Origin: Pseudoalteromonas translucida KMM 520
GTDB lineage: Bacteria > Pseudomonadota > Gammaproteobacteria > Enterobacterales > Alteromonadaceae
Direction of reading: 5' to 3'
NCBI RefSeq assembly: GCF_001465295.1
Contig: NZ_CP011035.1
Coordinates: 480,001 to 512,000, forward strand
Length of the DNA: 32,000 nt
Shown here: positions 2,865 through 29,106 of the stretch, piece after piece
How positions within the stretch are numbered: the first letter of the stretch is position 1
How the letters are laid out: every line of letters begins with the position of its first letter
Notes under the pieces: model-generated
What the model saw: only the letters and a program-made list of their open reading frames with translations
Database searches by the model: none
What the model was told of the DNA's origin: nothing
Made by a program: the position numbers and the translations under genes

Positions 2865-3385
2865 AGGGTTAAACACCTTTGTAGCTGAACTAATCCACGG
2901 CGGATCCAACTTTTTACCGTACCTAAAGGCGTGTCGATATGATCAACTAATTCGCTGTGGCTTAAGCCTTTGTAATAGGCCAAGTGAATCGCTTGTTTTT
3001 GCTGTGGCTCTAATTGCTCTATACAGCTTACGAGTTTGGTATTTTCGGCATAACTTACTTCAATATCGTGCTCGTTTATATCGTCATCGGCTAGTGATTG
3101 CTCCTTGCGCACTTTGTTGTAGCGCAGCGCATCAAGGCTTCGGTATCTAACAATGCTGATCATCCAGCTAATAACCGTTCCCTTAGATGAATTATACTCA
3201 GATGCGTTATGCCAAATTTTAATAAAAGCTTCTTGCAATACTTCTTCCGCATGCGCTCTGTTTGTTAACATATTTAAAGTTATAGCAAATAATTTTCCGC
3301 TTGTTTGCTGATAAAGATTAGCGAATGCGTGTTTATCGCCTTGTGCGGTTGAGCACAAAAGGGGGAGTAAATCGTCGTTTTCCAT
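2861..3385 (-). CDS. ECF-family RNA polymerase sigma-70 factor
   Basis: 174 aa. Region 2-like EEVLQEAFIKIWHNASEY and region 4-like AIHLAYYKGLSHSELVDHIDTPLGTVKSWIRRGL. Translationally coupled to the downstream anti-sigma gene. Confidence 0.9.
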   Translation of the reverse strand: MENDDLLPLLCSTAQGDKHAFANLYQQTSGKLFAITLNMLTNRAHAEEVLQEAFIKIWHNASEYNSSKGTVISWMISIVRYRSLDALRYNKVRKEQSLADDDINEHDIEVSYAENTKLVSCIEQLEPQQKQAIHLAYYKGLSHSELVDHIDTPLGTVKSWIRRGLVQLQRCLTL

Positions 3386-7199: not shown

Positions 7200-8507
7200 T
7201 TATCCTTGTGAGCCAGTAAATTGCTTTTTAATTGTGCGCCAGCAATCAGTGTAATTAGCTTGGCGCTCTTTGCCTTCAAGAGCGTATTTAGTAGGGGATA
7301 TGACATAACGTGATTCAAACATAAATGCCAGCGTATTCTCATAACGTTGTGGCTCAAGCTGGGCATTAGAGGCTTTGTCGAACACGTCGGCTTCAGGGCC
7401 ATGAGGCGACATACAATTGTGTAGGCTCATACCGCCGGGAACAAAGCCATGCTCTTTAGCATCGTAAACACCTTCTATTAAGCCCATAAATTCACTCATT
7501 ATATTGCGGTGAAAGTAAGGAGGGCGAAAGGTATTTTCGGCCACCATCCAACGTGGAGGGAAAATAGCAAAATCAATATTAGCAACACCCTCAGTACCTG
7601 ATGGCGATGTAAGTACGGTAAATATAGAAGGATCTGGGTGATCAAAGCTCACTGTATTCATTACATTAAAACGCGATAAATCATATTTATACGGCGCACT
7701 GTTACCGGTCCAGGCAACTACATCTAGAGGAGAGTGGCCTATATCACAACGAAACATATTGCCGTTAAATTTGGCAACTAATTCAAACTTATCTTCTATA
7801 TCTTCAAAAGCAGCCACTGGGTATTGAAAGTCACGATCGTTGGCAAAGCCATTAGAGCCGACCGGGCCACGCTCAGCTAAAACATATTGATGACCATAGT
7901 TTTCACAAATATAACCGCGTGCAGTTGCTGTTAATAGTTGTACCTGAAACTTTATACCACGGGGAATAACCGCTATTTCGCCCGCTTTAATGGTTAAATT
8001 ACCACACTCAGTTTTAAGTAATAATTCACCTTGCTGCGGTACAAACAGCATTTCGCCATCGGCATTATAAAAATAACGCCCGTCCATCGATTTATTAGCA
8101 ACATAAACATGAATACCAATACCGGTTTGGCCATTTGCACTACCATTAGCGGCCATAGTAATTAAGCCATCAATAAAGTCAGTTGGTTGCTGTGGAATGT
8201 CGATAGGGTTCCAGCGCAGCATAGTCGGTGGTGTCACTACTTCGGTGATAGGCGCAGTGCGAATTAAGCCATTATCTATTGCAGTATAATCGCCTTGAAC
8301 AACAGAGGGACGAATACGGTATAGCCAAGTTCGGCGATTATCGGCGCGCGGCGCAGTAAACGCGGTTGTACTAAACTGCTCTGCATATAAATCGTACTTT
8401 ACTTTTTGCGGGCTAAATTGCCCGATAGGCAATGCACCAGGCAAAGCTTCGGTTTCAAACTCATTACCAAAACCAGTCATGTATTTTAATTCGGTAGCCA
8501 TTAGCAA
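7200..8507 (-). CDS. hmgA: Homogentisate 1,2-dioxygenase
   Basis: 435 aa. [27 protein letters not shown] and the C-terminal [16 protein letters not shown]...HGP motifs are characteristic of HmgA. Confidence 0.95.
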
Positions 8508-8651
8508 CTCCTGTGAGAGTGGGGTAGTTTAATCTTGTTATTATTTAGGTTAAGATACTCTCAAGTGAGACTAATATCAAATGTGCAACTACGCACCTGT
8601 GTAAATATTAATGAACAGTTTAGCAACGCTTGTATAGATGGAATAACTAAA

Positions 8652-9083
8652 ATGAAAATTGATTTAGCCACGTTTTTACCTTACCAATTAAATAATATAG
8701 CGACGCAGGTAAGTAACGATTTTGCCAAAGTGTATAAACGTGAATTTGGCTTAAATATTCCGCAGTGGCGCATACTCGCTAACTTAGCGCAATATGGGCA
8801 AAGCACGGCTAAACAATTATGTATGCAAGCTGATATGGACAAATCAACGGTATCAAGAGCGGTACAAGCCTTAATAACTAAAGGTTTTATTTACAGCAAA
8901 GTGAATGAGCAAGATAAACGTGCTGCATTTTTAATGCTAGCTGATGAAGGCGAGGCTCTGTATAAAAAAATCACCCCAGAGGCACTTGCATGGGAAGCGC
9001 AGCTCTTAAATACACTTAGTGATGATGAGCGCCAGCAAATGATGAGCATTTTTGAAAAATTAAAACATCAGTTACAGCCATAA
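8652..9083 (+). CDS. MarR-family transcriptional regulator, divergent from hmgA
   Basis: NIPQWRILANLAQYGQSTAKQLCMQADMDKSTVSRAVQALITKGFI is a MarR winged-HTH. I prefer ATG 8652 (MKIDLATFLPYQL). The track start at 8535 is a TTG that adds 39 non-homologous residues across the divergent promoter region. Confidence 0.85.
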   Translation: MKIDLATFLPYQLNNIATQVSNDFAKVYKREFGLNIPQWRILANLAQYGQSTAKQLCMQADMDKSTVSRAVQALITKGFIYSKVNEQDKRAAFLMLADEGEALYKKITPEALAWEAQLLNTLSDDERQQMMSIFEKLKHQLQP

Positions 9084-9138: not shown

Positions 9139-12100
9139 TTAGAAAGTGTAACGAACACCTACGCGCATTTCCCAAAGAGAAGCATCACGTTGCACGGTTG
9201 TATTGGCATTATTAGGATTGAAATCCGAATAAATATAACGACCTTGAGCGTCAACATCGGTTGTAATCATACGAGAACCAACAAATGGACCTTTCTTAAG
9301 AACACCCCAATCATCATTTAACATATTAGTTAAGTTATCGATAACAAAGAATGCCTCACCTTTGTGGCCATCCATAAATCCTGGGATTTCTTGGGTTAGC
9401 TTAAAGTTGAACTTAACGAACCAATCTGCATTTTGAGCATTACGCCCAGCAATTTCACCACGTTTAAGACCTTGTGATGCTATAAACTCATTAAATTCAG
9501 TAATTTCAGCTGCGCTCATATTGTAAATAACATTAGGATCGTTTTCTAATGGTACGTATAAAAGCTGACGAGAACGATTTGAGTTTGCATCGCCAAATGC
9601 GCCATCACTTCCATTAAATGTAAAGCTGTATGGTAAGCCTTTATATGCTTCACCGAATAGGTTGAAGCGCGTGTTATAGCCATTGAAAAATTCATGGGTA
9701 TAACCAAGGTTTAAAGTAAAGCGGTGTGGTATTTCATAATCAGACGATGCAACACCAGGGTTACCAGGGTTAGCAGTTGCTACATTACCATAGTTAGAAT
9801 CAGCAACAGAGCTGGTCATCGGGTTTACATCATCAGAATCAGTATAAGCATAAGAAAATTGAACTTTAATACCATTATCATAAGCTTTACTAATAGCTGC
9901 AGAAATAACAGATGATTGACCACTGCTTCCATCTACATTAGTTAGTAGTAAGTCGCCATCACGTCCTTCAATTGATTCGTATAATGGGCGGCCGTCAAAA
10001 CTCACATCGCCAGATGGACGAAGTGCGATATCTCTTAAAATAGCGGCATTACGCTTTTTGGTATAAAGGTAATCAAGCGCAATAACATATTCATCTTCAG
10101 TAGTATAAGTTGCACCAAGTGAGTACTTCCACTCAGATGGAATATCAAAACCAGGATCAACAGCTTTTACCGATGCATCACCAGAACCAGGCACTACACT
10201 AGCCACACCATCAAATAATTCTTGTGGAACTTCAAAACCAGGCTTACCACCATTCACATTAGGTGTGTTAAATAAGTCCACATTATTCATGCGAAGGCCA
10301 ATATTTGTAATACCGTCATTTGAATACGAGTTAGATAACCATACATTTGGGTTACCGCCTGAGAATAAACCCATGCCCGCACGCACTTCTAGTGCATCGG
10401 TGGCGTACCATTCAAAACCAACACGTGGTTGAATTAAATCAATGCCATCAAAGGTTGACTGGTTACTAAATCCATAACGGTCAGTAAAATTTTGATTAAG
10501 TGTTGGTTTATCATCACTGCTGTAGCTATCGTAACGTAAGCCAAAGGTTAGTGACGCATCAATATTTGAGAAGCTATACTCATCTTGAACATAAAAGGTA
10601 TTTTGTGAATAAGAAAAGTTAGCAGCGGCATCTGCAGGGTTATTAGTACCAGCGGCATTGTTATAATACACGCGCGAAGCTAAACCATTTTCAAAATCAT
10701 CAATAGATGCAAAACGCCATTCACCTTCAGTATGCTGAACAAACTGATTGAAGACTTCTAGCTCTTCATATTCAAAACCAGCAGTAATAGTATGCTGATC
10801 TAAGTAATATGTACCTGCTATTTTAGCTGTAATAGTATCGTAGTTTAAGTCATTTGATTGACGAGAGTCATCAGGACCAAGGTAGACAGTGCCACCGTCA
10901 GTTGCTTCAATTTGGAATTCGCCAAAACTACTTGCAGCATCTAGAGAGTTTACACGTGCATCGAGTTCAGATTTACCAAGGCGAACTTCTGTTGAAAAAC
11001 TATCGTTCCAATCTGAATATAATGAACCTACGATTGAGGTGAATTCAGCGCCTTGTTCAAAAAAATGGCTATCTAAAGATAAGCGAGTAGAACCAGTATC
11101 TGACTGAGATAATGTGTAACCATCATTATAATTATAAACTAAGTTTGCACGATGAGAGTCGTTAATGTTCCAGTCTAACTTTATTAATATTTTTTCATCT
11201 TCAACTGGTGAACTTGCAGGCATACCACCGGCATCATAACCATATACAGTTTGAGATATCTGTTTAATACGTTCTAAATCAGCACTAGATACACTTGAAC
11301 CTAAAGGATCATAATTAAACTGTGCAACACCTTCTAACTTTTCATATGAAGTGAATAAAAATAAAGTGTCTTGAATAAGGGGCAAACCAACGTTAAAGCC
11401 ATAACGCTTTTCGCTGAAGTCTCCGTTATCAACTTTTTCACCTTCAATTTTGTCGCCTTTCATTGAATCGTTGGTGTAATCGTAGAATACGGCACCATGA
11501 ATGTCATTGCCGCCAGACTTAGTTACTGCATTAATGTTACACGAGGTAAAACCACCGTATTGCACATTGAAAGGGGCTAATTCAACGGCTACTTGCTCAA
11601 TTGAGTCAAATGAAAACGGAGCGCGAATAGTTGGGTAGCCGTTAGAGCTTAAGCCGAAGTTGTCGTTCATACGAACGCCATCAAGCGTTAAGCTGTTAAA
11701 GCGAGGGTTACCACCGCCACAGTTAATTGAACCACGACTGTCATCAACAGCAACGCGTGGATCAATACGAATAATATCTTTTAAATCGCGGTTAATTGCA
11801 GGTTGGTTTTCAAGGTCATTAAGTGTGAATGTTGAAGCGGGCCCTGTACCACCAGACATAGTGCTGATAGCACGACCTGTTACTACAATTTGTTCAATAT
11901 TAGATTGTGGTGCAAGTGTTACATTTACAGGGTAATCACTGCCTATATTCAAAATAATATTATTAAATGTTTGGTCAGCATAAACATCTGAATCAACAAC
12001 AACTTTATATGGGCCGCCAACGCGAAGGCCTTTTGCAGTAAAGTAACCAGCGGCATTTACTTCGGTAGATTTAACTGAGCCAGAAGGAACATGTAAAATT

Positions 12101-12252
12101 GTTACTTTAGTTCCTTGTGCAGGGTTGCCATTAGGGCCCATTATCTGACCTTTAATTGCAGACGTTGTTTCGTTGGCGATTGCAGCACCACTTACTCCTA
12201 CACATGCTGCAATAGCGAGTGATAGAGCTGTTTTACGAAGTTGAGTTTTCAT
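9139..12252 (-). CDS. TonB-dependent receptor, Oar-like, with N-terminal carboxypeptidase-regulatory-like domain
   Basis: About 1037 aa with a signal peptide. The N-terminal domain includes GTKVTILHVPSG...GLRVGGPYKVVV. TonB-box-like IEQIVVTG and plug LDGVRMND are present. The C-terminus ends in the beta-barrel signature VGVRYTF. ATG 12252 (MKTQL) is preferred because GGGAAA lies upstream of it. Confidence 0.9.
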   Translation of the reverse strand: MKTQLRKTALSLAIAACVGVSGAAIANETTSAIKGQIMGPNGNPAQGTKVTILHVPSGSVKSTEVNAAGYFTAKGLRVGGPYKVVVDSDVYADQTFNNIILNIGSDYPVNVTLAPQSNIEQIVVTGRAISTMSGGTGPASTFTLNDLENQPAINRDLKDIIRIDPRVAVDDSRGSINCGGGNPRFNSLTLDGVRMNDNFGLSSNGYPTIRAPFSFDSIEQVAVELAPFNVQYGGFTSCNINAVTKSGGNDIHGAVFYDYTNDSMKGDKIEGEKVDNGDFSEKRYGFNVGLPLIQDTLFLFTSYEKLEGVAQFNYDPLGSSVSSADLERIKQISQTVYGYDAGGMPASSPVEDEKILIKLDWNINDSHRANLVYNYNDGYTLSQSDTGSTRLSLDSHFFEQGAEFTSIVGSLYSDWNDSFSTEVRLGKSELDARVNSLDAASSFGEFQIEATDGGTVYLGPDDSRQSNDLNYDTITAKIAGTYYLDQHTITAGFEYEELEVFNQFVQHTEGEWRFASIDDFENGLASRVYYNNAAGTNNPADAAANFSYSQNTFYVQDEYSFSNIDASLTFGLRYDSYSSDDKPTLNQNFTDRYGFSNQSTFDGIDLIQPRVGFEWYATDALEVRAGMGLFSGGNPNVWLSNSYSNDGITNIGLRMNNVDLFNTPNVNGGKPGFEVPQELFDGVASVVPGSGDASVKAVDPGFDIPSEWKYSLGATYTTEDEYVIALDYLYTKKRNAAILRDIALRPSGDVSFDGRPLYESIEGRDGDLLLTNVDGSSGQSSVISAAISKAYDNGIKVQFSYAYTDSDDVNPMTSSVADSNYGNVATANPGNPGVASSDYEIPHRFTLNLGYTHEFFNGYNTRFNLFGEAYKGLPYSFTFNGSDGAFGDANSNRSRQLLYVPLENDPNVIYNMSAAEITEFNEFIASQGLKRGEIAGRNAQNADWFVKFNFKLTQEIPGFMDGHKGEAFFVIDNLTNMLNDDWGVLKKGPFVGSRMITTDVDAQGRYIYSDFNPNNANTTVQRDASLWEMRVGVRYTF

Positions 12253-12511
12253 TTTTTTTCCCATGTAGTTTATTAAACTTTTTATATTTATAAAGTATTT
12301 GCACTAAACAAACGAACCAAATTCATGCAGTACTAAATCTATACATATTATACATTAGTTTATGTTTACAAATAAGCTACAAGTGTAATGTTTTTTTAAT
12401 ATTTATAGATTAATACTACGAATGATTGATGTTAATAATGAAATGTTCGTGTTGTAAAAGAGAGTAAATACTATTTATGACAAATAGATGAAAAAGGGAG
12501 TTTAAATGAAA

Positions 12512-12539
12512 AAACCCATTACAAAGTTGTAATGGGTTT
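12512..12539 (-). terminator. Intrinsic terminator after the second TonB-dependent receptor
   Basis: AAACCCATTACAA / TTGTAATGGGTTT inverted repeat, followed on the minus strand by TTTTT (plus-strand 12507-12511 is AAAAA). Confidence 0.65.
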
Positions 12540-12571: not shown

Positions 12572-15500
12572 TTAAAACTTATAGCTCACACCAATTTTAG
12601 CTTGCCATGCAGATGATGACGTAGAAATTTGGCTATAATTGCGTACATCAGCACCGTTATGACGATTGTTGATAATGTATCGGCCTTCATCATCTATTCC
12701 AGCTAGGTCATATACAGCTTGATCAGAGTAACCTAAACGCTTTTCAACACCCCAGTCGCTATTAAGTAAGTTAGCAAAGTTATCAATCATAAAGTAAACC
12801 TCACCTTTATGGCCTTCAGCAAAACCTGGGATCTCTTGTTTAACACTAATATCCATAGTCGTAACCCAAGGTTGAGTGCCTGTATTACGGTTTAGAATTT
12901 GGCCACGCTCAGAAATACCAGCACGGTTAAGTAGCGTTTCAAGTTCGCTCCACGACAAACCAGATTCATCCCAGTTTACATTTGCATCATCAGCACCCGT
13001 TGGGATGTATGCAAGGTAAGCCGAGTTTGAATAAAAGTCACGTGTATCGCCTAAATCATCTTTTTCATAAAGACCCATTGTATAGCTAAATGGGCGGCCA
13101 GAGCGACGCTCAAAGTACATGTTAAACTTGGTTTGGTAGCCAGAAAAAAGCTCAGTATTATAGCTCACATTAACCTTAAAGCTATGTTCCACTTCGTAAG
13201 CACCACGCTGTGCTAAATCAACATTACGGCTTTGTGTTAATGTATGTTTATAATTACTTTGTGCTTGTGATGATGAACCACCTGAAGCTTCTGTAATATC
13301 TTGATGTGCATAACTGGTCGATATATACAGGCCGTTATCCCATTCTTTAGCAAGAGCGGTAGAGAAGATTACCGAGCGCCCATCTTCAGCTGAGTTGGTC
13401 ATTGCTATATCAAAGTTATCTTTTAAGTCACCTTCGTAGATACCTTCATAAATAATACGATCGCCATCAGCGGTTGTACCAACAGGCTTGATTGCAGTGT
13501 TATGCCATACAGCCTCATTTTCTTTTTTATGGTAAGCAATTTCTGCTTGCCATTTAAAGCCATTACCTAAAAATTCTGAGTCAAATTCATAATCAAAACC
13601 AACTTGCGCACGGATGCTTGAAGGTAATTTAAAATTAGGATCAATATAGTTAGTGCTACCCGCACCTTGTACTAATGAACCTTTTATTTCGTCTGGAACT
13701 TGAGTGATATCAACAGGATTATTTGCGTAGTAACCATCAATTACGCTTTGTGGTGCATCAACAAAAGTAAGACCGTCTTTTTGGAATGAGTTGTTATACC
13801 AAACGTTAGGAATACCGCCTTGGAAACGACCTACGCCACCATTGATAGTAAGAGCCTCTGTTGCATAATATTTGAAACCAACACGAGGTAAAATAATATC
13901 TACACCATCAAGGTTTTCTTGGTTAGTAAAACCATAGGTTTCTAAAAACTTTTCATTCAATGTTGGTTTATCGTCAGACGCTAAACGCTCATAACGTACA
14001 CCCGCAGTTACTTCTAAATCATCAGTAGCATAAAACGTATCTTCTACGTAAAGAGCAAACTGACTGCGCGTTGCATCGTAAGCAGTATCTGCTGAGTTAT
14101 TGGTATAGGCATTACTGTAAGTAAAGTCATGTTTACCTTTGTAATTACCTACTTCGCGGTTTTCGAAACCAGCAAAGTTATCAAACTCCCATGAGCCTAA
14201 AGAGTTGGCTGCAAATAAATTATATAAATTTAAAGATTCATACTTAGCACCAAACTTAATTTGATGTTCGTCTAATAAGTATGTGCCATCAAAAGTTAGT
14301 GTTAAATTTTCAGTCGCTGCTTTATTGGCATGACGGTATTCATCAGTACCAAACTGATAAGCTGGTCCACGGAAATATTCTTCAACTTTAACACTACCAA
14401 TTTTAGAGTTAGTGATGCTGTCAGATGTTACATCTTTATAAGCAATACCAATTTCAGTAGAGAAGTCTTCATTCCAATCTGAGTAAAGCTTGGTAGCAAA
14501 GTTGTTGAATTTAGTCGCGTAAGTGTAACGATTTGAAGCAAGTGAAACGGTACTGCCACCAGTACCAAAATTACGCTCGTCTTTATCGTCTTGCCATTGG
14601 TATGTAAAGTCTAAACGATGGTCGTCGTTGATGTTCCAGCTTAACTTAACCAATAATGACTCATTGGTGTCTTTAGGGTCGCCACCAAGAGAATCTTGCA
14701 TACCGTACACGTTATCTAATATAGATAAAAACTGATCAAAGCTTTCTTTGGTTACATCGTATTCGTTTGCTGCGCCTGAGCCTTCAAAGCCATAGTCTAA
14801 ATCTAACTCGCTCTTCCATGCATTGTAGTTTACAAAGTAAAAAAGCTTATCCTCTAGTATTGGTCCGCCAAAGTTAAAACCGTAACGCGCTTCTGTTTGG
14901 ATTGGCTTTACTTGTTCAGTAACAAATGTTCTGTGGCCATCTTCATCTAAAGCCGGTCTGCCATTTGCGTATACTTGTGAAATACTATCAACATCACCCG
15001 CCATATCTGGAGTTGATGTTTCATAAAAGCCAGAAAACTTAAATTCGTTAGTACCTGACTTTGTTACTGCATTTATAGTACCGCCACCAAAGTTACCTTT
15101 AGCTGCTGAAAAAGGAGATACGTCTACAGAAATTTGTTCAATTGCATCAAGTGCAACAGGTGGCTGCGCTGTAGGGTAGCCGCCATAGTTCAAACCAAAA
15201 TCGTCGTTTTGGCCAATGCCATCAACAGTTAAGCTATTACTACGTGGATTATTACCAGCAAAGGTTAGCTCTCCATTACCGTTAATATTTGCAAGTGGGT
15301 TTAAGCGAGCAATATCTTTAATATCACGGTTAAAACTCGGCATGTTTTGAATTGTATCTTCGCCAAAAGAGCTGCTAGAACCGCCAGATTGTTGTACTAT
15401 TTTATAGCCAGAAACTTCAATTTTTTCCATGTTTAATGGTCTAAGCTGAGAGTTTAAGCGATAAGTATCACCTAATTCTAGGTAGATGTTTTCAAGCGTA

Positions 15501-15778
15501 GTATCGTTAAAAGTATCAGAGTCGATTATTACTGTATATGGACCCCCAACACGTAAACCGTTAGCTATAAAAGTACCACTTGAATTGGTTGTAAGTTCAC
15601 TTACAGTTCCAGTAGGACCATGAATAACTTTAATTTTTACATTTGCAGCACTTTCACCAGATGGAGTAGTGATTTTACCACGCATTGCAGATGACGTGTC
15701 AGCAGCCATAGCACTTGCAGAAACACCAAGAGCTAAAATAATTGCTCCGGTTAATTTCGAAAGGCGAAGTTTATTCAT
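12572..15778 (-). CDS. TonB-dependent receptor, Oar-like paralogue
   Basis: 1068 aa with the same architecture: IKVIHGPTG...GLRVGGPYTVII, MEKIEVSG, LTVDGIGQND, and the C-terminal IGVSYKF. It is clearly paralogous to 9139-12252. It starts 25 nt after the nuclease stop with no hairpin in between. Confidence 0.9.
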   Translation of the reverse strand: MNKLRLSKLTGAIILALGVSASAMAADTSSAMRGKITTPSGESAANVKIKVIHGPTGTVSELTTNSSGTFIANGLRVGGPYTVIIDSDTFNDTTLENIYLELGDTYRLNSQLRPLNMEKIEVSGYKIVQQSGGSSSSFGEDTIQNMPSFNRDIKDIARLNPLANINGNGELTFAGNNPRSNSLTVDGIGQNDDFGLNYGGYPTAQPPVALDAIEQISVDVSPFSAAKGNFGGGTINAVTKSGTNEFKFSGFYETSTPDMAGDVDSISQVYANGRPALDEDGHRTFVTEQVKPIQTEARYGFNFGGPILEDKLFYFVNYNAWKSELDLDYGFEGSGAANEYDVTKESFDQFLSILDNVYGMQDSLGGDPKDTNESLLVKLSWNINDDHRLDFTYQWQDDKDERNFGTGGSTVSLASNRYTYATKFNNFATKLYSDWNEDFSTEIGIAYKDVTSDSITNSKIGSVKVEEYFRGPAYQFGTDEYRHANKAATENLTLTFDGTYLLDEHQIKFGAKYESLNLYNLFAANSLGSWEFDNFAGFENREVGNYKGKHDFTYSNAYTNNSADTAYDATRSQFALYVEDTFYATDDLEVTAGVRYERLASDDKPTLNEKFLETYGFTNQENLDGVDIILPRVGFKYYATEALTINGGVGRFQGGIPNVWYNNSFQKDGLTFVDAPQSVIDGYYANNPVDITQVPDEIKGSLVQGAGSTNYIDPNFKLPSSIRAQVGFDYEFDSEFLGNGFKWQAEIAYHKKENEAVWHNTAIKPVGTTADGDRIIYEGIYEGDLKDNFDIAMTNSAEDGRSVIFSTALAKEWDNGLYISTSYAHQDITEASGGSSSQAQSNYKHTLTQSRNVDLAQRGAYEVEHSFKVNVSYNTELFSGYQTKFNMYFERRSGRPFSYTMGLYEKDDLGDTRDFYSNSAYLAYIPTGADDANVNWDESGLSWSELETLLNRAGISERGQILNRNTGTQPWVTTMDISVKQEIPGFAEGHKGEVYFMIDNFANLLNSDWGVEKRLGYSDQAVYDLAGIDDEGRYIINNRHNGADVRNYSQISTSSSAWQAKIGVSYKF

Positions 15779-15803
15779 TATGTTGTTTTCCCGTATTATA
15801 AAG

Positions 15804-16673
15804 TTACTTAGTTAGTTGTTTTTCGCTAGTTTGCATCTTAAGTGCACTGACTAACGGTGTTGCTGATTCATCAAATAAACTATTTAATAAACCTGCGAGT
15901 CTTATTCCGCTTTGTTGCAGCCGAATTTTAATTATTGGCATATGGTTAAAAATGTAACTATAGCTAATGTCTGTTTCGTTTTTATTATAAATTGATTCTG
16001 CTAAGTTGTTTGATTCTACTAACCAACTAGTAGGGTTACTGGTTAGGTACTCACTAATTAAGGTTTGATTATTAGTATTGATAAAGTCAGCAAATTCAGT
16101 ATATGAGAGGTTTTCACCTTCAATTAATTTACTGTCCCATAAACTGTGTAGGTTGGTTTCTTGACCAAAATGTTGCACCTTTATACGGTTACCACCGCGA
16201 TCATCTGCACGCCCAGCATGAAAAGGCTGATGGCTGTCGCCTACTAAGTGTACTAAAAAGCGTAAACTAAACTGTTTAGCATCTAATGAACTTTGCTCGT
16301 CTTGAAGTACTTTAATTGAGTAATGAATGCCTTCAAGGATGTTGGTAACAGATTCTTTATTTTTTGTATGAGAATGATTGAGTGAAATAGGCTTGTTTGC
16401 AGATGTATTAATATAATGCCAGCGTGATGATTTTCTTTGCCAAAACTCACCAGGAGCAGAGCGCATTTCATCTGGCCAAGTAGACACTTGTGCTAAAGAT
16501 TCATTATTTAATAACGGAAAAAGTTTTGTTTTTGTTGTTTCACTAAGATGAGACTCTGCAATTTTAGCTATGATCCTGTGTCCATTTTGACCCCATGCAT
16601 GAGCATTAGTACAAACAAGTACAGCGCTGACGACCAGCGTTGCTTTAACTGAGGACATTAAGTTGTTACGCAT
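15804..16673 (-). CDS. Secreted S1/P1-family zinc nuclease
   Basis: A signal peptide is followed by WGQNGHRIIAKIAESHL...STWPDEMR...RWHYIN...FLVHLVGDSHQPFHAG...GGNRIKV...NLHSLWDSKLIE, which carries the family's metal-ligand motifs. AGGA lies 7 nt upstream of ATG 16673. Confidence 0.85.
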   Translation of the reverse strand: MRNNLMSSVKATLVVSAVLVCTNAHAWGQNGHRIIAKIAESHLSETTKTKLFPLLNNESLAQVSTWPDEMRSAPGEFWQRKSSRWHYINTSANKPISLNHSHTKNKESVTNILEGIHYSIKVLQDEQSSLDAKQFSLRFLVHLVGDSHQPFHAGRADDRGGNRIKVQHFGQETNLHSLWDSKLIEGENLSYTEFADFINTNNQTLISEYLTSNPTSWLVESNNLAESIYNKNETDISYSYIFNHMPIIKIRLQQSGIRLAGLLNSLFDESATPLVSALKMQTSEKQLTK

Positions 16674-16818
16674 TTGGTTTCCTTCAAATTATTATAGGGT
16701 CAAAATCACTAATCCGGTCAATTGTCCTTGTTTATTAGTGGGATAGGAAGGCGTTAATAACATTCATATTAACTTGTGGGTAAGTCATTTAAATCAATAG
16801 CTTGTATTTGATAGGTAA

Positions 16819-16842
16819 AATTACTTATTGCAATAAGTAATT
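16819..16842. promoter_or_regulatory. Perfect 24-bp palindrome AATTACTTATTGCAATAAGTAATT in the divergent intergenic region
   Basis: Exact self-complementarity read directly from the sequence. It lies between the nuclease/TBDR unit (minus) and the PhnD-like/wHTH-like pair (plus). The confidence value refers to an operator function; the palindrome itself is certain. Confidence 0.5.
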
Positions 16843-16876
16843 AAAATTGTTCAAATGGGGTAATAATAATATTAGG

Positions 16877-17776
16877 ATGTTTTGTTTGAACATTAAATGC
16901 GTCATTTACAATAAAATGCTGTTAATTGTATTTTTATATTTGTTAATTGTTTTAGTGTGGGTGTGTGGTCAGCTGAGTGTTGATAGCAGTGAATTACGCT
17001 TTGTAAAATTAATAGAAACATCAATTGAATGCCAAACATCTGTAATTAAAAATGAAAACCAGTTAATCATCTTTGCGCCATCAAAAAAAATAGCAGGTAC
17101 ATTAGCACATAGCTTGTGTACAGATGATGTGGTAGCTAAGCAATACGGTGCGGTTGTAAGTTACTGGCGCTATAACACGACGGAGAGCTTTGAATTTGTA
17201 GGAAAAGGCATTGCAGATCTTATTTTAACTAAAAACAATATTATGGAAGCATTTAAAGCCGAGGCTACCTATAACTACCAGCCTGTAGTTGGGTTTTCTG
17301 ATTACACTGCATTTTTTATTTCGGCTAAAGAAAAACCTAAAATAACAAAAGAGTACTTTTTAGGTAAGCGTATTGGATTATTAGATTATCCAACCAGTCG
17401 CTCAGGGCATATATTGCCAAAGCAAGTATTTAAAGAGTTGGATATTAACCTCGAAAACTTAAATATTGTTTATGCCAGCTCTCATGATGCGTTACGTGAT
17501 TTATTGGCTAACGGCAAAGTTGATCTTATAGCTTCATTTTGGCAAGAAAGTGATACAAAACGCTTTTCAAAAAACTATATTACACCGCTAAAAAATAACA
17601 TTGCAGGCACGCGCTGGTATTTAAAAATGCCACACAATAATACCGATTTATTGTGCTCGGTACAGGCGCATTTATTAGCCATGTCGCAAGAGCAATCTCT
17701 TCATTACTATAAAGGTGCGCAGTCATTTTGGCAGTGTGATAACGACGTTGTAACTTATAAGCGAGATGCAATATGA
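16877..17776 (+). CDS. Membrane-anchored periplasmic binding protein, PhnD-like (phosphonate-binding type 2 PBP fold)
   Basis: The N-terminus has one hydrophobic segment, LLIVFLYLLIVLVWV. GKRIGLLDYPTSRSGHILPKQVFKELDINLENLNIVYASSHDALRDLLANGKVDLIASFW matches the core pattern of the PhnD / Phosphonate-bd family. The start is uncertain: TTG 16847, ATG 16877 or ATG 16916. Confidence 0.55.
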   Translation: MFCLNIKCVIYNKMLLIVFLYLLIVLVWVCGQLSVDSSELRFVKLIETSIECQTSVIKNENQLIIFAPSKKIAGTLAHSLCTDDVVAKQYGAVVSYWRYNTTESFEFVGKGIADLILTKNNIMEAFKAEATYNYQPVVGFSDYTAFFISAKEKPKITKEYFLGKRIGLLDYPTSRSGHILPKQVFKELDINLENLNIVYASSHDALRDLLANGKVDLIASFWQESDTKRFSKNYITPLKNNIAGTRWYLKMPHNNTDLLCSVQAHLLAMSQEQSLHYYKGAQSFWQCDNDVVTYKRDAI

Positions 17777-18720
17777 GTAAGCAGATACTTTCATTTATTA
17801 CGCTATTAATTTTTTTGTTACTTTGTAGCGTATTTTATTACTCAGTAAGCTATAAACAACAGCAAGTGCAAAAGCTTAATATAGCCACGATAGAAAAGCA
17901 GGTAGCGCTGGATTTACCTTTACTCGAGCTATCTAATGAACTGCTTAAGTACTCCAGTAATATAGATAATATAAATAGTTATTTAGAGCAGTTAAATTCG
18001 CAGCTAGTCGGCACTAATTTGTTATTGTTAAATATTGTCGCTGATAAAAAGCTATCAACCACATTAACCGAAGCGCAGTTTTTTACGCGTTTAACGACTA
18101 GTATTGGCCCTGTTTTTTTAGTTTTTGATATAAAACCACAGCCATGGCCGTGGCGTTATATTTATTATTATGTCGCTATTTTTATTTTAAGTGCTTTTGT
18201 GAGCTACTGGCTGAAAACAGTCATTACAATAGAGCAAAAAAGTAAGCAATTAGCTACGCTGCAGCCTGAACCTGTTGAGGAAAGTAAATCACCCGTGTTA
18301 GTTATTAATCTAAATACTAAAACGGTGTCAGTTAATATTAATCCGCAATACCAAGTATGTTTAGCAAATAAACCTCTTAGCTTTTATTTAGCGCTTATTG
18401 AATTTTGTAACAGTAATAGCGATGTTGTGCTTAGCCATAATAAAGATGTACCTGATGAGCTGATTGAATTAGCTAATAAATATTTTTATCGACTGGTGGA
18501 GCTGGGGCACACGATCCGCAAGCGCCCTAACTTTAACAATAGTCTTGAAAAAACATTGAGCGAAATACGCGCGGCGTTAGATGAAGTGTTAAGTGAATAC
18601 CCGCAACAAAAAGAAATTTTTTATCCGCCTAAGGCATTTGGAGAGGGTTCTCGTTCGCGGCTTCACAGTTACGGGTTAGTTAATATTGCTAAAGGCGATT
18701 TAGAAATAGTAGGCAAGTAA
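17773..18720 (+). CDS. Two-TM membrane protein with C-terminal OmpR/PhoB-like winged-helix region (tentative)
   Basis: Its ATG overlaps the upstream stop as ATGA. TM1 is FITLLIFLLLCSVFYY, followed by a loop of about 105 aa, then TM2 YIYYYVAIFILSAFVSYWL. The C-terminal 150 aa, VLVINLNTKTVSVNINPQYQVCLANKPLSFYLALIEFCNSNSDVVLSH...SLEKTLSEIRAALDEVL...YGL, aligns by eye to OmpR effector-domain elements. This has not been verified. Confidence 0.5.
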   Translation: MSKQILSFITLLIFLLLCSVFYYSVSYKQQQVQKLNIATIEKQVALDLPLLELSNELLKYSSNIDNINSYLEQLNSQLVGTNLLLLNIVADKKLSTTLTEAQFFTRLTTSIGPVFLVFDIKPQPWPWRYIYYYVAIFILSAFVSYWLKTVITIEQKSKQLATLQPEPVEESKSPVLVINLNTKTVSVNINPQYQVCLANKPLSFYLALIEFCNSNSDVVLSHNKDVPDELIELANKYFYRLVELGHTIRKRPNFNNSLEKTLSEIRAALDEVLSEYPQQKEIFYPPKAFGEGSRSRLHSYGLVNIAKGDLEIVGK

Positions 18721-18753: not shown

Positions 18754-20370
18754 TTATTTAGGGGCGAACTGGGCCGCATCTATCGGGCTGTGCTCTGCAA
18801 AAAAGCGCTTTAATGCGTTAGAGTCTGTTTCATCGGTGACTACGAAACCTTTTGCTGTGGTTAGTGCAGGGTAGCCATCACCACCTGAGGCGTTAAAGTT
18901 ATTAATGCTCATACGGTAAGTTTTACTTTTATCTAATGCTTGCCCATTTATTAATATCTTTACTAAGGAGTTGTTTTTATGCTCAAACGATAATTTGTGG
19001 TACTGCATGTAAGCGCCGGAATCAGGCGGAAAACGCGTTACAACTTCTAAATATTGCCATAAATCTTCTCCTGCAATATCGATATAAGCCACTCGATTTT
19101 GAAACGGTTGGGCTTTTAAAATATCTTTATAACTTACTTCGCCTGCAGCAATACTGTCGCGTACACCGCCGCCACTCATAATGCCAAAGTCAGCATCGGT
19201 ACTGTTCATTTGTGCTTGAATAATAACGCGGGCTAAATTTGTTTGTTGGTAGCGTACTTTATTACGGTCGCCTTCAAGTCTGGCATTTACATAGCCAATT
19301 TTACCTTCAATTTGTTTAGCGCCTTTTTCCTGATACTCGGCTAAAAATGCGTTTAACTGTGGATTCGGCTCAATGTACTCGTTAGCTAATAGACTCGATG
19401 TTGTGCCATCCGCGTTTTGTTTATCAACATATAAATTAACGGGTAGCAGTTTATAACTTAAGAGAGTTAGCTGGCCATTTTCAAGTTTAAATTCGGCTTT
19501 ACCAACATATTTACCCCATTCGTGGGCTTGCATTATCCAAGTGCCATTTTGTTGATCGGGCGTGCAGGCTAGACCAGGTTTAAAGTTATCGTCATTTACG
19601 TTTTTAGCCGCCATACATACAGGCTCTTGAGAGTGACCACCGATGATCATATCTAAGGTATTAGTTGGCAGTGAACGCGCAAGTGTTACATCCCCAGGCG
19701 CATTAATTGCGTGGCTAGCATCCACATAATGCCCCATATGAGTGAGCGCAATGGTAATGTCGGGATTATATTGTGCTTTAATTTTTTGTGCTAATTGCGC
19801 CGTGATCTCAATCGGATCTTTAAACTCTAATTGGCGAATATATTCGGGATTACCTATTTTGGCTGTATCAGTGGTGGTTAAACCTATAACAGCAATACTC
19901 AGCCCATTTTTGTTAAATACTTTATAGCTATCAAATACATTTTCACCGGTCGATTTTTCAAATATATTTGCCGACAAAAAAGGAAAGTTAGCCCATTGCT
20001 GTTGCTTTTTAAGTACGCTCATCGGGTTATCAAATTCATGATTTCCAAGGGCCATCGCATCATAGCCAATTAACGACATGCCTTTGAAGTCGGGTTCAGC
20101 GAATTGTAAATCTGACTCTGGAATACCGGTATTTATATCGCCACCAGACAGCAGCAGTACTGCGTGTCCCTGCGCGATTGCTTTGTTGCGTAGCGAGTCA
20201 ATCAGGGTTTTACGGGCAGCCATGCCGTATTCACCTTTTTCATTGTGCCAAAAGCGGCCATGATTATCGTTAGTATGCAGTACGGTTAAATATTGTGGGG
20301 CGGGGCTGGTGAGTGTAGTACTACACCCAAGTACACTAAAAGCAATGACAAACAAAAAAATTATGCGCAT
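18754..20370 (-). CDS. ushA: 5'-nucleotidase / UDP-sugar hydrolase, lipoprotein form (UshA/NutA-like)
   Basis: LTVLHTNDNHGRFW, LLSGGDINTG and GNHEFD are metallophosphoesterase motifs, and the C-terminal 5'-nucleotidase domain is present. The lipobox is SVLGCS. I prefer ATG 20370 (MRIIFLFV) because AGGTG lies 4 nt upstream. The track start at 20394 is a GTG. Confidence 0.9.
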   Translation of the reverse strand: MRIIFLFVIAFSVLGCSTTLTSPAPQYLTVLHTNDNHGRFWHNEKGEYGMAARKTLIDSLRNKAIAQGHAVLLLSGGDINTGIPESDLQFAEPDFKGMSLIGYDAMALGNHEFDNPMSVLKKQQQWANFPFLSANIFEKSTGENVFDSYKVFNKNGLSIAVIGLTTTDTAKIGNPEYIRQLEFKDPIEITAQLAQKIKAQYNPDITIALTHMGHYVDASHAINAPGDVTLARSLPTNTLDMIIGGHSQEPVCMAAKNVNDDNFKPGLACTPDQQNGTWIMQAHEWGKYVGKAEFKLENGQLTLLSYKLLPVNLYVDKQNADGTTSSLLANEYIEPNPQLNAFLAEYQEKGAKQIEGKIGYVNARLEGDRNKVRYQQTNLARVIIQAQMNSTDADFGIMSGGGVRDSIAAGEVSYKDILKAQPFQNRVAYIDIAGEDLWQYLEVVTRFPPDSGAYMQYHKLSFEHKNNSLVKILINGQALDKSKTYRMSINNFNASGGDGYPALTTAKGFVVTDETDSNALKRFFAEHSPIDAAQFAPK

Positions 20371-20456
20371 AAAACACCTATTGATTAAAAGCACTTACGT
20401 TTATTGGCGCATAGTTTAACTAGTTTGCTACAAAAACACACTTTTACATTCTTTAA

Positions 20457-29102: not shown

Positions 29103-29106
29103 TAAT

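What the first reader, a model, noticed from the sequence alone, without database searches (positions are those of the whole stretch)
12572..16673. Secreted S1/P1 nuclease apparently co-transcribed with an Oar-like TonB-dependent receptor
- The nuclease stop (15804) and the receptor start (15778) are 25 nt apart, with no hairpin between them.
- A strong terminator appears only after the receptor, at 12512-12539.
- S1/P1 nucleases release 5'-mononucleotides and short oligonucleotides from single-stranded nucleic acid.
- Placing such an enzyme in one unit with an outer-membrane active transporter suggests TonB-energised uptake of nucleic-acid breakdown products.
- As far as I know, no substrate of that class is well established for TonB-dependent receptors, and Oar-like receptors with the carboxypeptidase-regulatory N-domain are mostly substrate-orphan.
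Basis: partly seen in the sequence, partly recalled or inferred. Interest (0 to 1): 0.65.

Follow-up and report, generated by a model that had tools for sequence, protein, structure and literature searches.

The report
Nucleic-acid scavenging locus with TonB receptor
A secreted S1/P1 nuclease and an outer-membrane TonB-dependent receptor sit in a gene module, with its own regulator pair and DNA operator, that is conserved across marine bacteria and most likely lets them feed on nucleic-acid breakdown products.

Summary
An S1/P1 nuclease gene (15804-16673, -) lies 25 nt upstream of an Oar-like TonB-dependent receptor (12572-15778, -). The junction is unstructured, and a strong terminator follows the receptor only.

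The pair is not a chance neighbour. It is half of a four-gene module, with a divergent PhnD-like binding protein (16847-17776) and an uncharacterised membrane protein (17773-18720). A 20-bp palindrome (16821-16840) lies between the two halves.

The module is kept in about 80 Pseudoalteromonas species.

Accessory genes differ between lineages but share one theme: UshA, alkaline phosphatase, uridine kinase, e(P4) 5'-nucleotidase, RNase T2 and Endonuclease_NS.

A sister locus type, common in ocean metagenomes, keeps the receptor, the regulator pair and the same operator. It has no S1/P1 nuclease and carries udk-nupC downstream of the regulator genes.

This strongly favours import of nucleic-acid-derived nutrients over nuclease export.

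I rate it a new variant of a known kind. Nothing here is experimentally shown.

The parts
15804..16673 (-). S1/P1 nuclease, 289 aa. It has a Sec-type signal peptide, and predicted cleavage (AHA|W) leaves Trp27 as the mature N-terminus.
   Evidence: - Pfam PF02265: 2.2e-66, full-length match.
- Best solved relative is 8qjl, 'S1/P1 Nuclease', at 3.9e-32. Residue 27 aligns to residue 1 of every mature PDB chain.
- W27, H32, D68, H86, H142, D146, H152, H176 and D180 are invariant in 12 homologues.
15779..15803 (-). 25-nt junction between the nuclease stop and the receptor start. It has no hairpin and carries an ACGGGAAAA ribosome-binding region.
   Evidence: - Sequence read; fold -2.4 kcal/mol, z +0.41.
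- The gap is 57 nt or less in 70 of 78 Pseudoalteromonas-type loci.
- The same CACGGGAAA box precedes the second receptor.
12572..15778 (-). Oar-like TonB-dependent receptor, class B, 1068 aa. In order: signal peptide, CarboxypepD_reg N-terminal extension, EKIEVSGY TonB-box-like stretch (my reading), weak plug, barrel, C-terminal Phe.
   Evidence: - Domain hits.
- Class B is the class closest to four of the five receptors next to the nuclease in clearly different genomic settings: Cellvibrio L091 and L095, Psychrosphaera L092 and L093, 42-46% identity.
- The Flocculibacter receptor (L088) is closest to class C (49%, against 45% to B).
12512..12539 (-). Intrinsic terminator that ends the nuclease-receptor unit.
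   Evidence: The terminator is also visible in the alignment of orthologous intergenic regions.
16821..16840 (.). Perfect 20-bp palindrome TTACTTATTGCAATAAGTAA. It is the candidate operator in the divergent promoter region.
   Evidence: - Unique in the window.
- Found with 4 or fewer mismatches 132-198 nt upstream of the nuclease in 85 of the 89 nuclease-TBDR loci scanned. Two misses lack upstream sequence, L011 lacks the regulator pair, and L091 is Cellvibrio.
- Found upstream of the PhnD-like gene in 62 of 66 metagenome loci of both types, with 1 match elsewhere in 979 kb.
16716..16775 (-). Further conserved non-coding boxes between the operator and the nuclease: AAGTAATTATGAAT..TCCTTTCTAT and GGACAATTGACC. 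Probably a half-site plus promoter elements.
   Evidence: - Alignment.
- The small-ORF reading is rejected: ORF length ranges from 3 to 100 codons, and the conserved DNA is read in different frames in different genomes.
16847..17776 (+). PhnD/SsuA-like substrate-binding-fold protein with an N-terminal membrane anchor. No ABC partner genes are present. It is the candidate periplasmic ligand sensor.
   Evidence: - Pfam Phosphonate-bd: 1e-6, 28.7 bits against a cut-off of 27.
- PDB 5jvb phosphonate-binding protein: E 0.018.
- RefSeq names the orthologue a 'PhnD/SsuA/transferrin family substrate-binding protein'.
- It is always immediately upstream of the next gene.
17773..18720 (+). Orphan 315-aa membrane protein with two transmembrane helices, a small periplasmic domain and a highly conserved cytoplasmic C-terminal domain. 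It is the candidate membrane-bound DNA-binding regulator. Its start overlaps the upstream gene by 4 nt.
   Evidence: - No Pfam or NCBIfam hit.
- The family has only 81 clusters at 50% identity among 1.84 billion representatives.
- AlphaFold2: pLDDT 76.6 for the whole protein; pLDDT 78 and pTM 0.78 for the C-terminal domain.
- The top 7 Foldseek PDB hits for the C-terminal domain are all the V. cholerae ToxR DNA-binding domain. They are not significant (E 0.7-2.4, TM 0.42-0.55).
- Cross-genus alignment.
18754..20394 (-). UshA 5'-nucleotidase / UDP-sugar hydrolase. It is a lineage-specific accessory gene that would convert the nuclease's 5'-NMP products into nucleosides and phosphate.
   Evidence: - NCBIfam NF007109 equivalog: 815.6 bits against a cut-off of 600.
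- Adjacent to the module in the Pseudoalteromonas-type loci.
- Not adjacent to the module in Flocculibacter, Psychrosphaera or Cellvibrio. Alkaline phosphatase + uridine kinase (Psychrosphaera) and an e(P4) 5'-nucleotidase (Cellvibrio) sit beside it there.
9139..12264 (-). Second, paralogous Oar-like TonB-dependent receptor (class A, 1041 aa). It is a separate transcription unit with its own conserved promoter-like region.
   Evidence: - Pfam hits.
- A 307-nt gap containing the terminator separates it from the first receptor.
- Classes A and B are 31-38% identical.
- In 36 other loci (26 with A alone, 10 with A-B) a class A receptor is the first receptor after the nuclease. In most of these the gap is short; in five (L010, L011, L035, L038, L041) it is 303-413 nt.

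Best explanation
The two genes are the enzymatic and outer-membrane-transport half of a self-regulated nucleic-acid scavenging module.

Shown by sequence:
- An S1/P1 nuclease with an export signal, followed 25 nt later by an Oar-type TonB-dependent receptor, with one terminator after both.
- Upstream and divergent: a PhnD-like periplasmic binding-fold protein and an orphan two-TM membrane protein whose start overlaps it by 4 nt.
- A perfectly palindromic 20-bp site between the two halves.

Inferred mechanism:
1. The PhnD-like protein senses a periplasmic phosphorylated ligand, probably a nucleotide or similar phosphate ester.
2. It signals through the membrane protein, whose conserved cytoplasmic domain (possibly a ToxR-like winged helix) binds the palindrome and switches on the nuclease-receptor operon.
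3. The nuclease is exported by Sec. Cleavage before Trp27 creates the N-terminal Trp that this family uses as a zinc ligand. It cuts single-stranded DNA/RNA and oligonucleotides to 5'-mononucleotides, either in the periplasm or after further secretion.
4. The receptor uses TonB energy to bring nucleic-acid fragments (oligonucleotides, nucleotides or nucleosides) across the outer membrane at low ambient concentration.
5. Periplasmic UshA removes the phosphate. Nucleosides and phosphate then enter through inner-membrane carriers.

The neighbouring second receptor is a separately transcribed paralogue. In other species a receptor of that class sits directly after the nuclease.
For: 1. Anatomy.

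2. Conservation within the genus:
- All 80 Pseudoalteromonas-type genome loci with sequence downstream have an Oar-like receptor after the nuclease, with a gap of 57 nt or less in 70 of 78.
- The one apparent exception (L020) is the same receptor split by an IS3 element.

3. Conservation with unrelated flanks. The four-gene module is intact in:
- Flocculibacter (L088);
- Cellvibrio sp. BR (L091);
- Psychrosphaera (L092);
- an unnamed 4.6-Mb contig (L093);
- L094, L095 and L096;
- L102.

4. Accessory genes converge on nucleic-acid catabolism:
- UshA here;
- alkaline phosphatase plus uridine kinase (288 bits, equivalog) directly after the receptor in Psychrosphaera;
- Endonuclease_NS after the receptor, plus RNase T2 and an e(P4) 5'-nucleotidase, in Cellvibrio;
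- an adenosine-deaminase-like gene and a urate-oxidase-related gene in L095.

5. Sister locus type. A metagenome scan seeded with the orphan membrane protein returned 80 loci.
- In 47 of the 47 loci with enough upstream sequence, an Oar-like receptor lies divergent from the PhnD-like gene.
- 22 loci carry the S1/P1 nuclease. 43 instead carry udk-nupC-2OG oxygenase after the regulator pair. None has both.
- In L099 the receptor is followed by an ExeM/NucH-family extracellular nuclease, and in L105 by an EEP-family protein.

6. The same 20-bp operator occurs in both locus types: 62 of 66 loci, with 1 background match in 979 kb.

7. Precedent for TonB transporters in DNA utilisation: PMC12478041.
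Against: - There is no expression, localisation, transport or growth data for any member. Everything functional is inferred from gene context.
- Co-transcription is not measured, and an internal promoter cannot be excluded.
- The substrate size class is unresolved. 5'-NMPs and nucleosides are small enough for porins, so the need for a TonB-dependent transporter rests on an argument about low concentrations.
- The only studied Oar protein works in protein secretion, not import (PMC6434023).
- The DNA-binding assignment of the membrane protein is weak. It has no Pfam hit, and the Foldseek E-values are 0.7 or higher.
- More distant S1/P1 homologues on plasmids of Sphingomonads, Fulvitalea and Rhodanobacter are not next to such receptors. 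The link is therefore clade-specific, not a property of the enzyme family.
Confidence: 0.68

Rival explanations
1. The Oar-like receptor is a TonB-dependent exporter. It moves the periplasmic S1/P1 nuclease across the outer membrane, as Myxococcus Oar does for the protease PopC. The operon would then be an enzyme plus its dedicated secretion pore.
For: - Oar is the only studied protein with this architecture that my literature searches turned up. It is required, with ExbB/ExbD/TonB, for PopC secretion. The authors suggest other uncharacterised TBDTs may secrete proteins (PMC6434023).
- The nuclease has only a Sec signal and no obvious route across the outer membrane.
- Tight nuclease-receptor coupling would fit a cargo and its pore.
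Against: - 43 sister loci keep the receptor, the regulator pair and the operator but have no S1/P1 nuclease. Some (L170) have no nuclease-like gene next to the receptor at all. These loci pair the receptor with the inner-membrane nucleoside importer NupC and with uridine kinase.
- Next to one conserved nuclease, the receptor has been swapped between classes that are only 31-43% identical. That is hard to reconcile with a specific cargo-pore interaction.
- A cytoplasmic salvage kinase and periplasmic phosphatases in the same operons point to assimilation.
Confidence: 0.1
2. The receptor imports a different organophosphate or other nutrient, such as phosphorylated sugars, polyphosphate, phospholipid head groups or peptides. 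The nuclease is merely co-regulated as one of several scavenging enzymes, as in phosphate-starvation regulons.
For: - The partner sensor has a phosphonate/phosphate-binding fold.
- Phosphatases (UshA, alkaline phosphatase, e(P4)) are recurrent neighbours.
- One Novosphingobium S1/P1 gene sits beside PhoD and a FecIR-controlled receptor.
- Phosphate-starvation SusCD-like 'PusCD' systems exist in Flavobacterium (PMC8115612). A 2026 preprint assigns them to phospho(inositol)lipid utilisation.
- A Pho-box-like site lies upstream of the second receptor.
Against: - No Pho box lies upstream of the nuclease operon, which has its own dedicated operator.
- The genes that replace the nuclease in the sister loci are nucleoside-specific (nupC 484 bits, udk 275 bits), not general phosphate-scavenging genes.
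- The other neighbours are nucleases and purine-catabolic genes.
Confidence: 0.14
3. The adjacency is inherited synteny with no functional coupling. The nuclease and the receptor simply sit side by side on the second chromosome of Pseudoalteromonas.
For: Within Pseudoalteromonas the whole 12-kb neighbourhood is syntenic (PPIase, UshA, module, MarR, hmgA). Conservation within the genus is therefore weak evidence on its own.
Against: - The module recurs with completely different flanks in at least five other genomic settings.
- It recurs with a non-orthologous nuclease in L099.
- A shared operator occurs across lineages whose regulator proteins are only about 25% identical.
Confidence: 0.03

Closest known systems
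Bacteroides thetaiotaomicron ddbABCDEF DNA-utilisation locus and the related Riemerella anatipestifer transformation genes (PMC12478041)
   Same: [quoted passage not shown] The locus is needed to deplete exogenous DNA and to produce nucleobases from it. There is a PUL-like logic of outside cleavage, TonB-dependent import and periplasmic finishing. Several transporter subtypes have diverged and are exchanged between strains.
   Different: - The ddb transporter is a SusC-type protein with a surface lipoprotein partner (DdbD, DUF5689). Here there is no SusD-like or DUF5689 gene.
- The receptor here is an Oar-type protein of Gammaproteobacteria.
- The ddb nucleases are described as three nucleases without a family assignment in the passages I read. 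I did not compare them with the S1/P1 protein here.
- Regulation here appears to use a PhnD-like protein and an orphan membrane protein with a palindromic operator. The passages I read describe no counterpart at ddb.
Myxococcus xanthus Oar (PMC6434023)
   Same: The domain architecture is the same: signal peptide, carboxypeptidase-regulatory-like N-terminal extension, plug with TonB box, and large barrel.
   Different: Oar is implicated in exporting a protease and, to my knowledge, is not encoded next to its cargo. Here the context (NupC, Udk, nucleotidases) argues for import. Direct sequence relatedness to Oar itself was not measured.
Polysaccharide utilisation loci / SusCD systems, and phosphate-starvation PusCD systems of Flavobacterium (PMC8115612)
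   Same: [quoted passage not shown]
   Different: There is no SusD-like lipoprotein. The host phylum, receptor subfamily and substrate class all differ. There is no Pho box at the operon.
ToxR/ToxS-type membrane-bound one-component regulators, and binding-protein-gated sensors such as Vibrio CBP-ChiS (my own knowledge)
   Same: A membrane-embedded protein that may bind DNA directly, encoded with a periplasmic partner protein, controlling an adjacent nutrient-acquisition operon. ToxR's DNA-binding domain gives the top structural matches.
   Different: The topology is reversed: the conserved domain is C-terminal, after two TM helices. There is no detectable sequence homology to the OmpR/ToxR family. 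DNA binding is untested.
Shewanella extracellular-DNA utilisation (ExeM and ExeS nucleases, UshA and phosphatases) and trypanosomatid surface 3'-nucleotidase/nuclease of the S1/P1 family (my own knowledge)
   Same: Exported nucleases plus nucleotidases are used to live on external nucleic acids. An S1/P1-family enzyme serves nucleoside salvage.
   Different: No TonB-dependent receptor or dedicated regulator module has been tied to those systems, as far as I know. An ExeM/NucH-type nuclease does appear next to the receptor in the sister locus L099.

Membership tests
S1/P1 nuclease (PF02265) | Full-length match to the family profile above the curated cut-off | tested here: met
   224.8 bits against a cut-off of 29.5; profile positions 1-258 of 258.
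S1/P1 nuclease (PF02265) | Nine zinc ligands, including the mature N-terminal Trp (P1 numbering: W1, H6, D45, H60, H116, D120, H126, H149, D153; from my own knowledge) | tested here: met
   W27, H32, D68, H86, H142, D146, H152, H176 and D180 are invariant in 12 homologues. W27 aligns with residue 1 of all mature PDB chains.
S1/P1 nuclease (PF02265) | Single-strand-specific nuclease / 3'-nucleotidase activity that yields 5'-NMPs | not testable with these tools
   Needs an enzyme assay.
TonB-dependent transporter | 22-strand barrel domain with a terminal aromatic residue | tested here: met
   OMP_b-brl_4 at 1.6e-24 and TonB_dep_Rec_b-barrel at 6.1e-9. The protein ends in ...SYKF.
TonB-dependent transporter | [quoted passage not shown] | tested here: inconclusive
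   Plug matches at residues 129-225, but with 19.8 bits, below the cut-off of 23.9. Plug is listed for the orthologous receptors of L091 and L095, and marked weak for L096. The TonB box (EKIEVSGY) was read by eye only.
Oar-like TBDT subgroup | Carboxypeptidase-regulatory-like N-terminal extension before the plug | tested here: met
   PF13620 at 5.9e-14, residues 32-112.
Oar-like TBDT subgroup | Role in protein secretion, as shown for M. xanthus Oar | not testable with these tools
   Context argues against it, but no experiment exists.
SusC/SusD-type utilisation locus (PUL, ddb, PusCD) | A SusD-like or DdbD-like surface lipoprotein encoded next to the transporter | tested here: not met
   No such gene occurs in the window or in any related locus. 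The genes beside the receptor are the nuclease, phosphatases, other nucleases or a second receptor.
Pho regulon member | A Pho box in the promoter region of the operon | tested here: not met
   No match with 3 or fewer mismatches between 16674 and 16846. The only nearby match is upstream of the second receptor, and matches are no more frequent than chance in the window.
PhnD/SsuA-type ABC-transporter binding protein | Binding-protein fold | tested here: met
   Phosphonate-bd at 28.7 bits against a cut-off of 27, which is marginal. The same family hits the orthologues in other genera.
PhnD/SsuA-type ABC-transporter binding protein | Adjacent ABC permease and ATPase genes | tested here: not met
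   None occur in any of the loci. The gene is always paired with the orphan membrane protein.
OmpR/ToxR winged-helix DNA-binding domain | Sequence match to Trans_reg_C or to solved family members | tested here: not met
   No Pfam hit at E up to 10. The profile search of PDB sequences finds nothing relevant. An exhaustive profile search finds only a closed family of 81 clusters.
OmpR/ToxR winged-helix DNA-binding domain | Structural similarity of the predicted domain | tested here: inconclusive
   The top 7 Foldseek hits are all the ToxR DNA-binding domain. However, E is 0.7-2.4, probability is 0.47 or less, and TM is 0.42-0.55.

The most novel reading that the evidence does not exclude
Oar-type TonB-dependent receptors of this clade are dedicated high-affinity importers of nucleic-acid-derived molecules (oligonucleotides, nucleotides or nucleosides) in marine and aquatic Gammaproteobacteria. 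They are switched on by a previously unrecognised type of membrane-bound one-component regulator. That regulator is a two-TM protein with a C-terminal ToxR-like DNA-binding domain. It is gated by a PhnD-like periplasmic ligand sensor and binds a 20-bp palindrome conserved across both locus types. This would assign a substrate to a large orphan receptor group that is common in ocean metagenomes, and it would define a new signalling family.
Probability: 0.4. Interest if true: 0.8.

Novelty: new variant of a known kind. Interest (0 to 1): 0.68.

Why it matters
To my knowledge, TonB-dependent receptors are among the most abundant outer-membrane proteins reported from marine bacteria and ocean metaproteomes, yet most have no known substrate. 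Dissolved DNA and RNA are a large pool of organic phosphorus and nitrogen in the sea.

This locus gives a concrete, testable assignment: one receptor clade, two locus architectures, a defined operator and a candidate sensor pair. It occurs in culturable, genetically tractable Pseudoalteromonas and recurs in TARA and other seawater metagenomes.

If confirmed, it would:
- extend the recently described link between TonB transporters and DNA utilisation from Bacteroidota to Gammaproteobacteria;
- do so with entirely different parts;
- give a function to an orphan protein family.

Tried and rejected
- **Small leader peptide.** The conserved ATGAAT box upstream of the nuclease does not encode one. 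ORF lengths run from 3 to 100 codons, some genomes have GTG or TTG, and the conserved GGACAATTGACC is read in different frames.
- **Pho control of the operon.** No Pho box is present.
- **Known RNA element.** Rfam finds nothing in the window.
- **Sequence-level identification of the orphan membrane protein.** Pfam at E up to 10, NCBIfam, and a PDB sequence profile all gave nothing. Foldseek on the full-length model gave only noise. The domain model gave suggestive but non-significant ToxR hits.
- **PDB relatives of the receptor.** None found by sequence.
- **Plasmid-borne distant S1/P1 homologues as an out-group for the pairing.** They are mostly next to mobile-element or unrelated genes, which shows that the link is clade-specific.
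- **Literature on this pairing.** Searches for S1/P1 nuclease plus TonB receptor in Pseudoalteromonas found nothing. Two searches failed on term syntax.
- **The L020 exception.** The apparent exception to the pairing turned out to be an IS3 insertion in the receptor.
- **Taxonomy of L093-L096.** It could not be resolved from cluster names.

Full report
**What is in the window**

The window comes from a Pseudoalteromonas replicon. The nuclease is 97% identical to a multispecies Pseudoalteromonas protein. The region matches a 680-kb replicon of Pseudoalteromonas sp. HL-AS2, where the nuclease is 97.2% identical at protein level and the gene order is the same.

Genes in the region:

| Coordinates | Strand | Gene |
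|---|---|---|
| 18754-20394 | - | UshA 5'-nucleotidase (NCBIfam equivalog, 815.6 bits) |
| 17773-18720 | + | 315-aa protein with no family hit |
| 16847-17776 | + | PhnD/SsuA-like binding-fold protein |
| 15804-16673 | - | S1/P1 nuclease |
| 12572-15778 | - | Oar-like TonB-dependent receptor |
| 9139-12264 | - | second Oar-like receptor |
| 8535-9083 | + | MarR |
| 7200-8507 | - | hmgA |
| 6561-7193 | - | maiA |

**Checking the observation**

Every stated feature is present.
- The nuclease stop and the receptor start are 25 nt apart.
- The junction is unstructured: -2.4 kcal/mol, z +0.41.
- The hairpin at 12539-12512 is a textbook intrinsic terminator. It has a 12-bp perfect stem and a U tract, folds at -16.5 kcal/mol with z -4.4, and no shuffle folds as well.
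- The promoter scan carries no information, with 36 hits against 41 expected. An internal promoter cannot be excluded.

The nuclease looks like a functional family member.
- It gives a full-length Pfam match.
- Its best solved relative is 8qjl.
- Trp27, directly after an AHA signal-peptide cleavage motif, aligns with residue 1 of every mature PDB chain.
- The residues matching the nine zinc ligands are invariant among homologues.

The receptor has a signal peptide, a carboxypeptidase-regulatory-like N-terminal extension, a weak plug match, the barrel domains and a terminal Phe.

**Is the pairing conserved? Within the genus**

A genome scan with a nuclease alignment returned 80 loci. One is a MAG labelled only Alteromonadaceae (L075); the rest are Pseudoalteromonas species.
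- All loci with downstream sequence carry an Oar-like receptor after the nuclease on the same strand.
- The gap is 57 nt or less in 70 of 78 loci.
- The single apparent exception, L020, is the same receptor interrupted by an IS3 element.

The receptor in this slot is not always the same gene. The receptors fall into classes A-E that are only 31-43% identical to each other.

| Arrangement after the nuclease | Loci |
|---|---|
| A alone | 26 |
| B-A | 23, plus the window |
| A-B | 10 |
| B alone | 8 |
| C | 4 |
| D | 4 |
| B-C | 2 |
| B-E | 1 |

Because the whole neighbourhood is syntenic in the genus, this alone would be weak evidence of coupling.

**Beyond the genus**

The decisive evidence is the same arrangement in unrelated genomic settings. 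In each case below, four genes are kept while the flanks differ: a ~310-aa orphan protein, a PhnD-like protein, then divergently an S1/P1 nuclease and an Oar-like receptor.
- Flocculibacter collagenilyticus: between RecQ/SelO and AraC/ketoacyl synthase genes.
- Cellvibrio sp. BR.
- Psychrosphaera haliotis.
- An unnamed 4.6-Mb contig: between the his operon and miaE.
- Two further settings, L094 and L095.
- L102.

Four of the five receptors in the clearly different settings (Cellvibrio L091 and L095, Psychrosphaera L092, and L093) are closest to class B, the window's first receptor, at 42-46% identity. The Flocculibacter receptor is closest to class C. Class B is therefore probably the original partner of the nuclease.

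More distant S1/P1 homologues on plasmids of Sphingomonads, Fulvitalea and Rhodanobacter lack this context. The link belongs to this clade, not to the enzyme family.

**What the neighbours say about function**

The accessory genes differ by lineage but share one theme.
- Pseudoalteromonas: UshA.
- Psychrosphaera: an alkaline phosphatase 24 nt after the receptor, then uridine kinase (equivalog, 288 bits).
- Cellvibrio: an Endonuclease_NS gene after the receptor, with RNase T2 and an e(P4)-family 5'-nucleotidase upstream.
- L095: an adenosine-deaminase-like gene and a urate-oxidase-related gene.

**The regulator pair and its operator**

The 315-aa protein has no Pfam or NCBIfam match. Its family is small and closed: 81 clusters at 50% identity among 1.84 billion representatives. 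Most members are 300-345 aa with the conserved domain at the C-terminus.

AlphaFold2 predicts two long membrane helices around a small periplasmic domain, followed by a compact C-terminal domain with pLDDT 78 and pTM 0.78. This C-terminal domain is almost invariant across genera. Its seven best Foldseek matches in the PDB are all the DNA-binding domain of Vibrio cholerae ToxR, itself a membrane-anchored regulator. The scores are not significant (E 0.7-2.4, TM 0.42-0.55). I treat DNA binding as a hypothesis.

Independent support comes from the DNA. A perfect 20-bp palindrome, TTACTTATTGCAATAAGTAA, lies at 16821-16840 between the divergent genes and is unique in the window. With 4 or fewer mismatches it occurs 132-198 nt upstream of the nuclease in 85 of the 89 nuclease-TBDR loci scanned. 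The four misses are two loci with no upstream sequence, L011 (which has lost the regulator pair) and Cellvibrio L091.

**A sister locus type**

Using the orphan protein family as bait in metagenomes gave 80 loci.
- In all 47 loci with at least 3.8 kb of upstream sequence, an Oar-like receptor lies divergent from the PhnD-like gene.
- 22 loci are of the window's type.
- 43 loci, many from TARA Oceans, lack the S1/P1 nuclease. They continue after the regulator pair with uridine kinase, a NupC nucleoside permease and a 2OG-Fe(II) oxygenase. None has both arrangements.
- In L099 the receptor is followed by an ExeM/NucH-family extracellular nuclease. In L105 it is followed by an endonuclease/exonuclease/phosphatase-family protein, and in L170 by a DJ-1-family protein.
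- The same operator, TTAC(C/T)TATTGC(A/T)(A/T)TAA(G/A)TAA, is present in 41 of 41 type II loci and 19 of 22 type I loci. Only one match occurs elsewhere in 979 kb.

The invariant core is therefore receptor + PhnD-like protein + orphan membrane protein + operator. The variable part is always nucleic-acid or nucleoside metabolism.

**Mechanism and rivals**

*Best explanation: an inducible scavenging system (confidence 0.68).*
1. A periplasmic ligand is sensed by the PhnD-like protein.
2. The membrane protein binds the palindrome.
3. The nuclease-receptor operon is expressed.
4. The nuclease produces 5'-mononucleotides, and the receptor brings nucleic-acid fragments across the outer membrane using TonB energy.
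5. UshA and inner-membrane carriers finish the job.

Only the gene anatomy, the conservation and the motif statistics are shown. Every step of function is inferred. The size of the transported molecule and the final location of the nuclease are open.

*Export rival (0.10).* It rests on Myxococcus Oar, which is needed for PopC secretion (PMC6434023). It is weakened by the many loci that keep the receptor with nupC and udk but have no nuclease, and by receptor-class swapping next to a conserved nuclease.

*General organophosphate import (0.14).* It cannot be excluded, but the nucleoside-specific genes argue against it, as does the absence of a Pho box.

*Pure synteny (0.03).* It is effectively refuted.

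**Comparison with what is known**

The nearest described system is the Bacteroides thetaiotaomicron ddbABCDEF locus.

The present module works like that system but is not a member of it. There is no SusD- or DdbD-like lipoprotein. The receptor is an Oar-type protein of Gammaproteobacteria. The regulator pair has no described counterpart in what I read. Whether the ddb nucleases are related to S1/P1 was not tested here.

Searches of the held literature found no paper that links an S1/P1 nuclease to a TonB receptor in Pseudoalteromonas.

**Verdict**

I rate it a new variant of a known kind, with interest 0.68. The interest rests on three points:
- it gives a testable substrate assignment for an abundant orphan receptor clade;
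- it points to a new regulator family;
- it occurs in culturable bacteria and in open-ocean metagenomes.

Noticed in passing
window 9139-12264 and 12572-15778; loci L002-L080: The slot after the nuclease is a hotspot of receptor turnover. Five receptor classes (31-43% identical between classes) occur as A, B, B-A, A-B, C, D, B-C or B-E in different Pseudoalteromonas species. The cause was not examined. It could be differences in substrate range, or escape from phages or bacteriocins that use the receptor.
   Followed up: partly
window 12477-12494 (-), upstream of the second receptor: A Pho-box-like direct repeat, TTTTCATCTATTTGTCAT, sits just after the terminator. In the alignment of 30 orthologous intergenic regions it falls in a conserved block (ATTTCA[T/C]...TTGTCATAAA), and 19 of those regions match the Pho-box pattern with 3 or fewer mismatches. 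It lies 60-70 nt upstream of a conserved promoter-like TTGTAA..N17..TACACT. The match is not statistically significant in the window alone.
   Followed up: partly
L103-L182 (type II loci), e.g. L105 9732-12527: In the sister loci, a 2OG-Fe(II) oxygenase (DIOX_N + 2OG-FeII_Oxy) always follows udk-nupC. It might modify imported nucleosides, for example by hydroxylating deoxynucleosides so that uridine kinase can use them. This is pure speculation.
   Followed up: no
type II intergenic regions, e.g. L126 and L128: A second palindrome, TTGACCA-N2-TGGTCAA (extended form CTTGACC-N4-GGTCAAG), lies between the receptor and the PhnD-like gene in several type II loci. It may be the site of a second regulator.
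   Followed up: no
window 27562-32000: This is a pqiABC-like operon in which the PqiB/MlaD-domain gene appears to be split by an IS4-family transposase. PqiA is at 31266-32000. MlaD fragments are at 30526-31269 and 28176-29093, on either side of the transposase at 29112-30437. The PqiC-like lipoprotein is at 27562-28176.
   Followed up: no
L020 7910-11632: In Pseudoalteromonas sp. AOP31-A2-14, the receptor after the nuclease is interrupted by an IS3-family element (orfA/orfB). This is a natural knockout that could be compared phenotypically with relatives.
   Followed up: partly
L011 (Pseudoalteromonas sp. BSi20652): This genome has lost the PhnD-like/orphan-protein pair and the palindrome but keeps the nuclease. 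The gap to the next receptor is 413 nt. This is consistent with the pair and the operator belonging together.
   Followed up: partly
window 3741-5369 (+): A 542-aa fusion protein combines a dual-specificity protein phosphatase domain with a diacylglycerol-kinase-like catalytic domain and a YegS C-terminal domain.
   Followed up: no
window 416-3385 (-): An ECF sigma factor, an RskA-type anti-sigma factor and a DUF4331 protein form a run of same-strand genes of unknown role.
   Followed up: no
L097 1053-4108: A very distant member of the orphan family (377 aa), with its PhnD-like partner, is followed by a DprA (DNA-processing protein A) gene on a short metagenome contig. This may be coincidence.
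   Followed up: no
L131, L153, L163, L177 and L091 (Cellvibrio-like loci): These loci have the full module but lack a recognisable copy of the 20-bp operator. A CACTGCAATAGTG palindrome in L091 may be the local variant.
   Followed up: no
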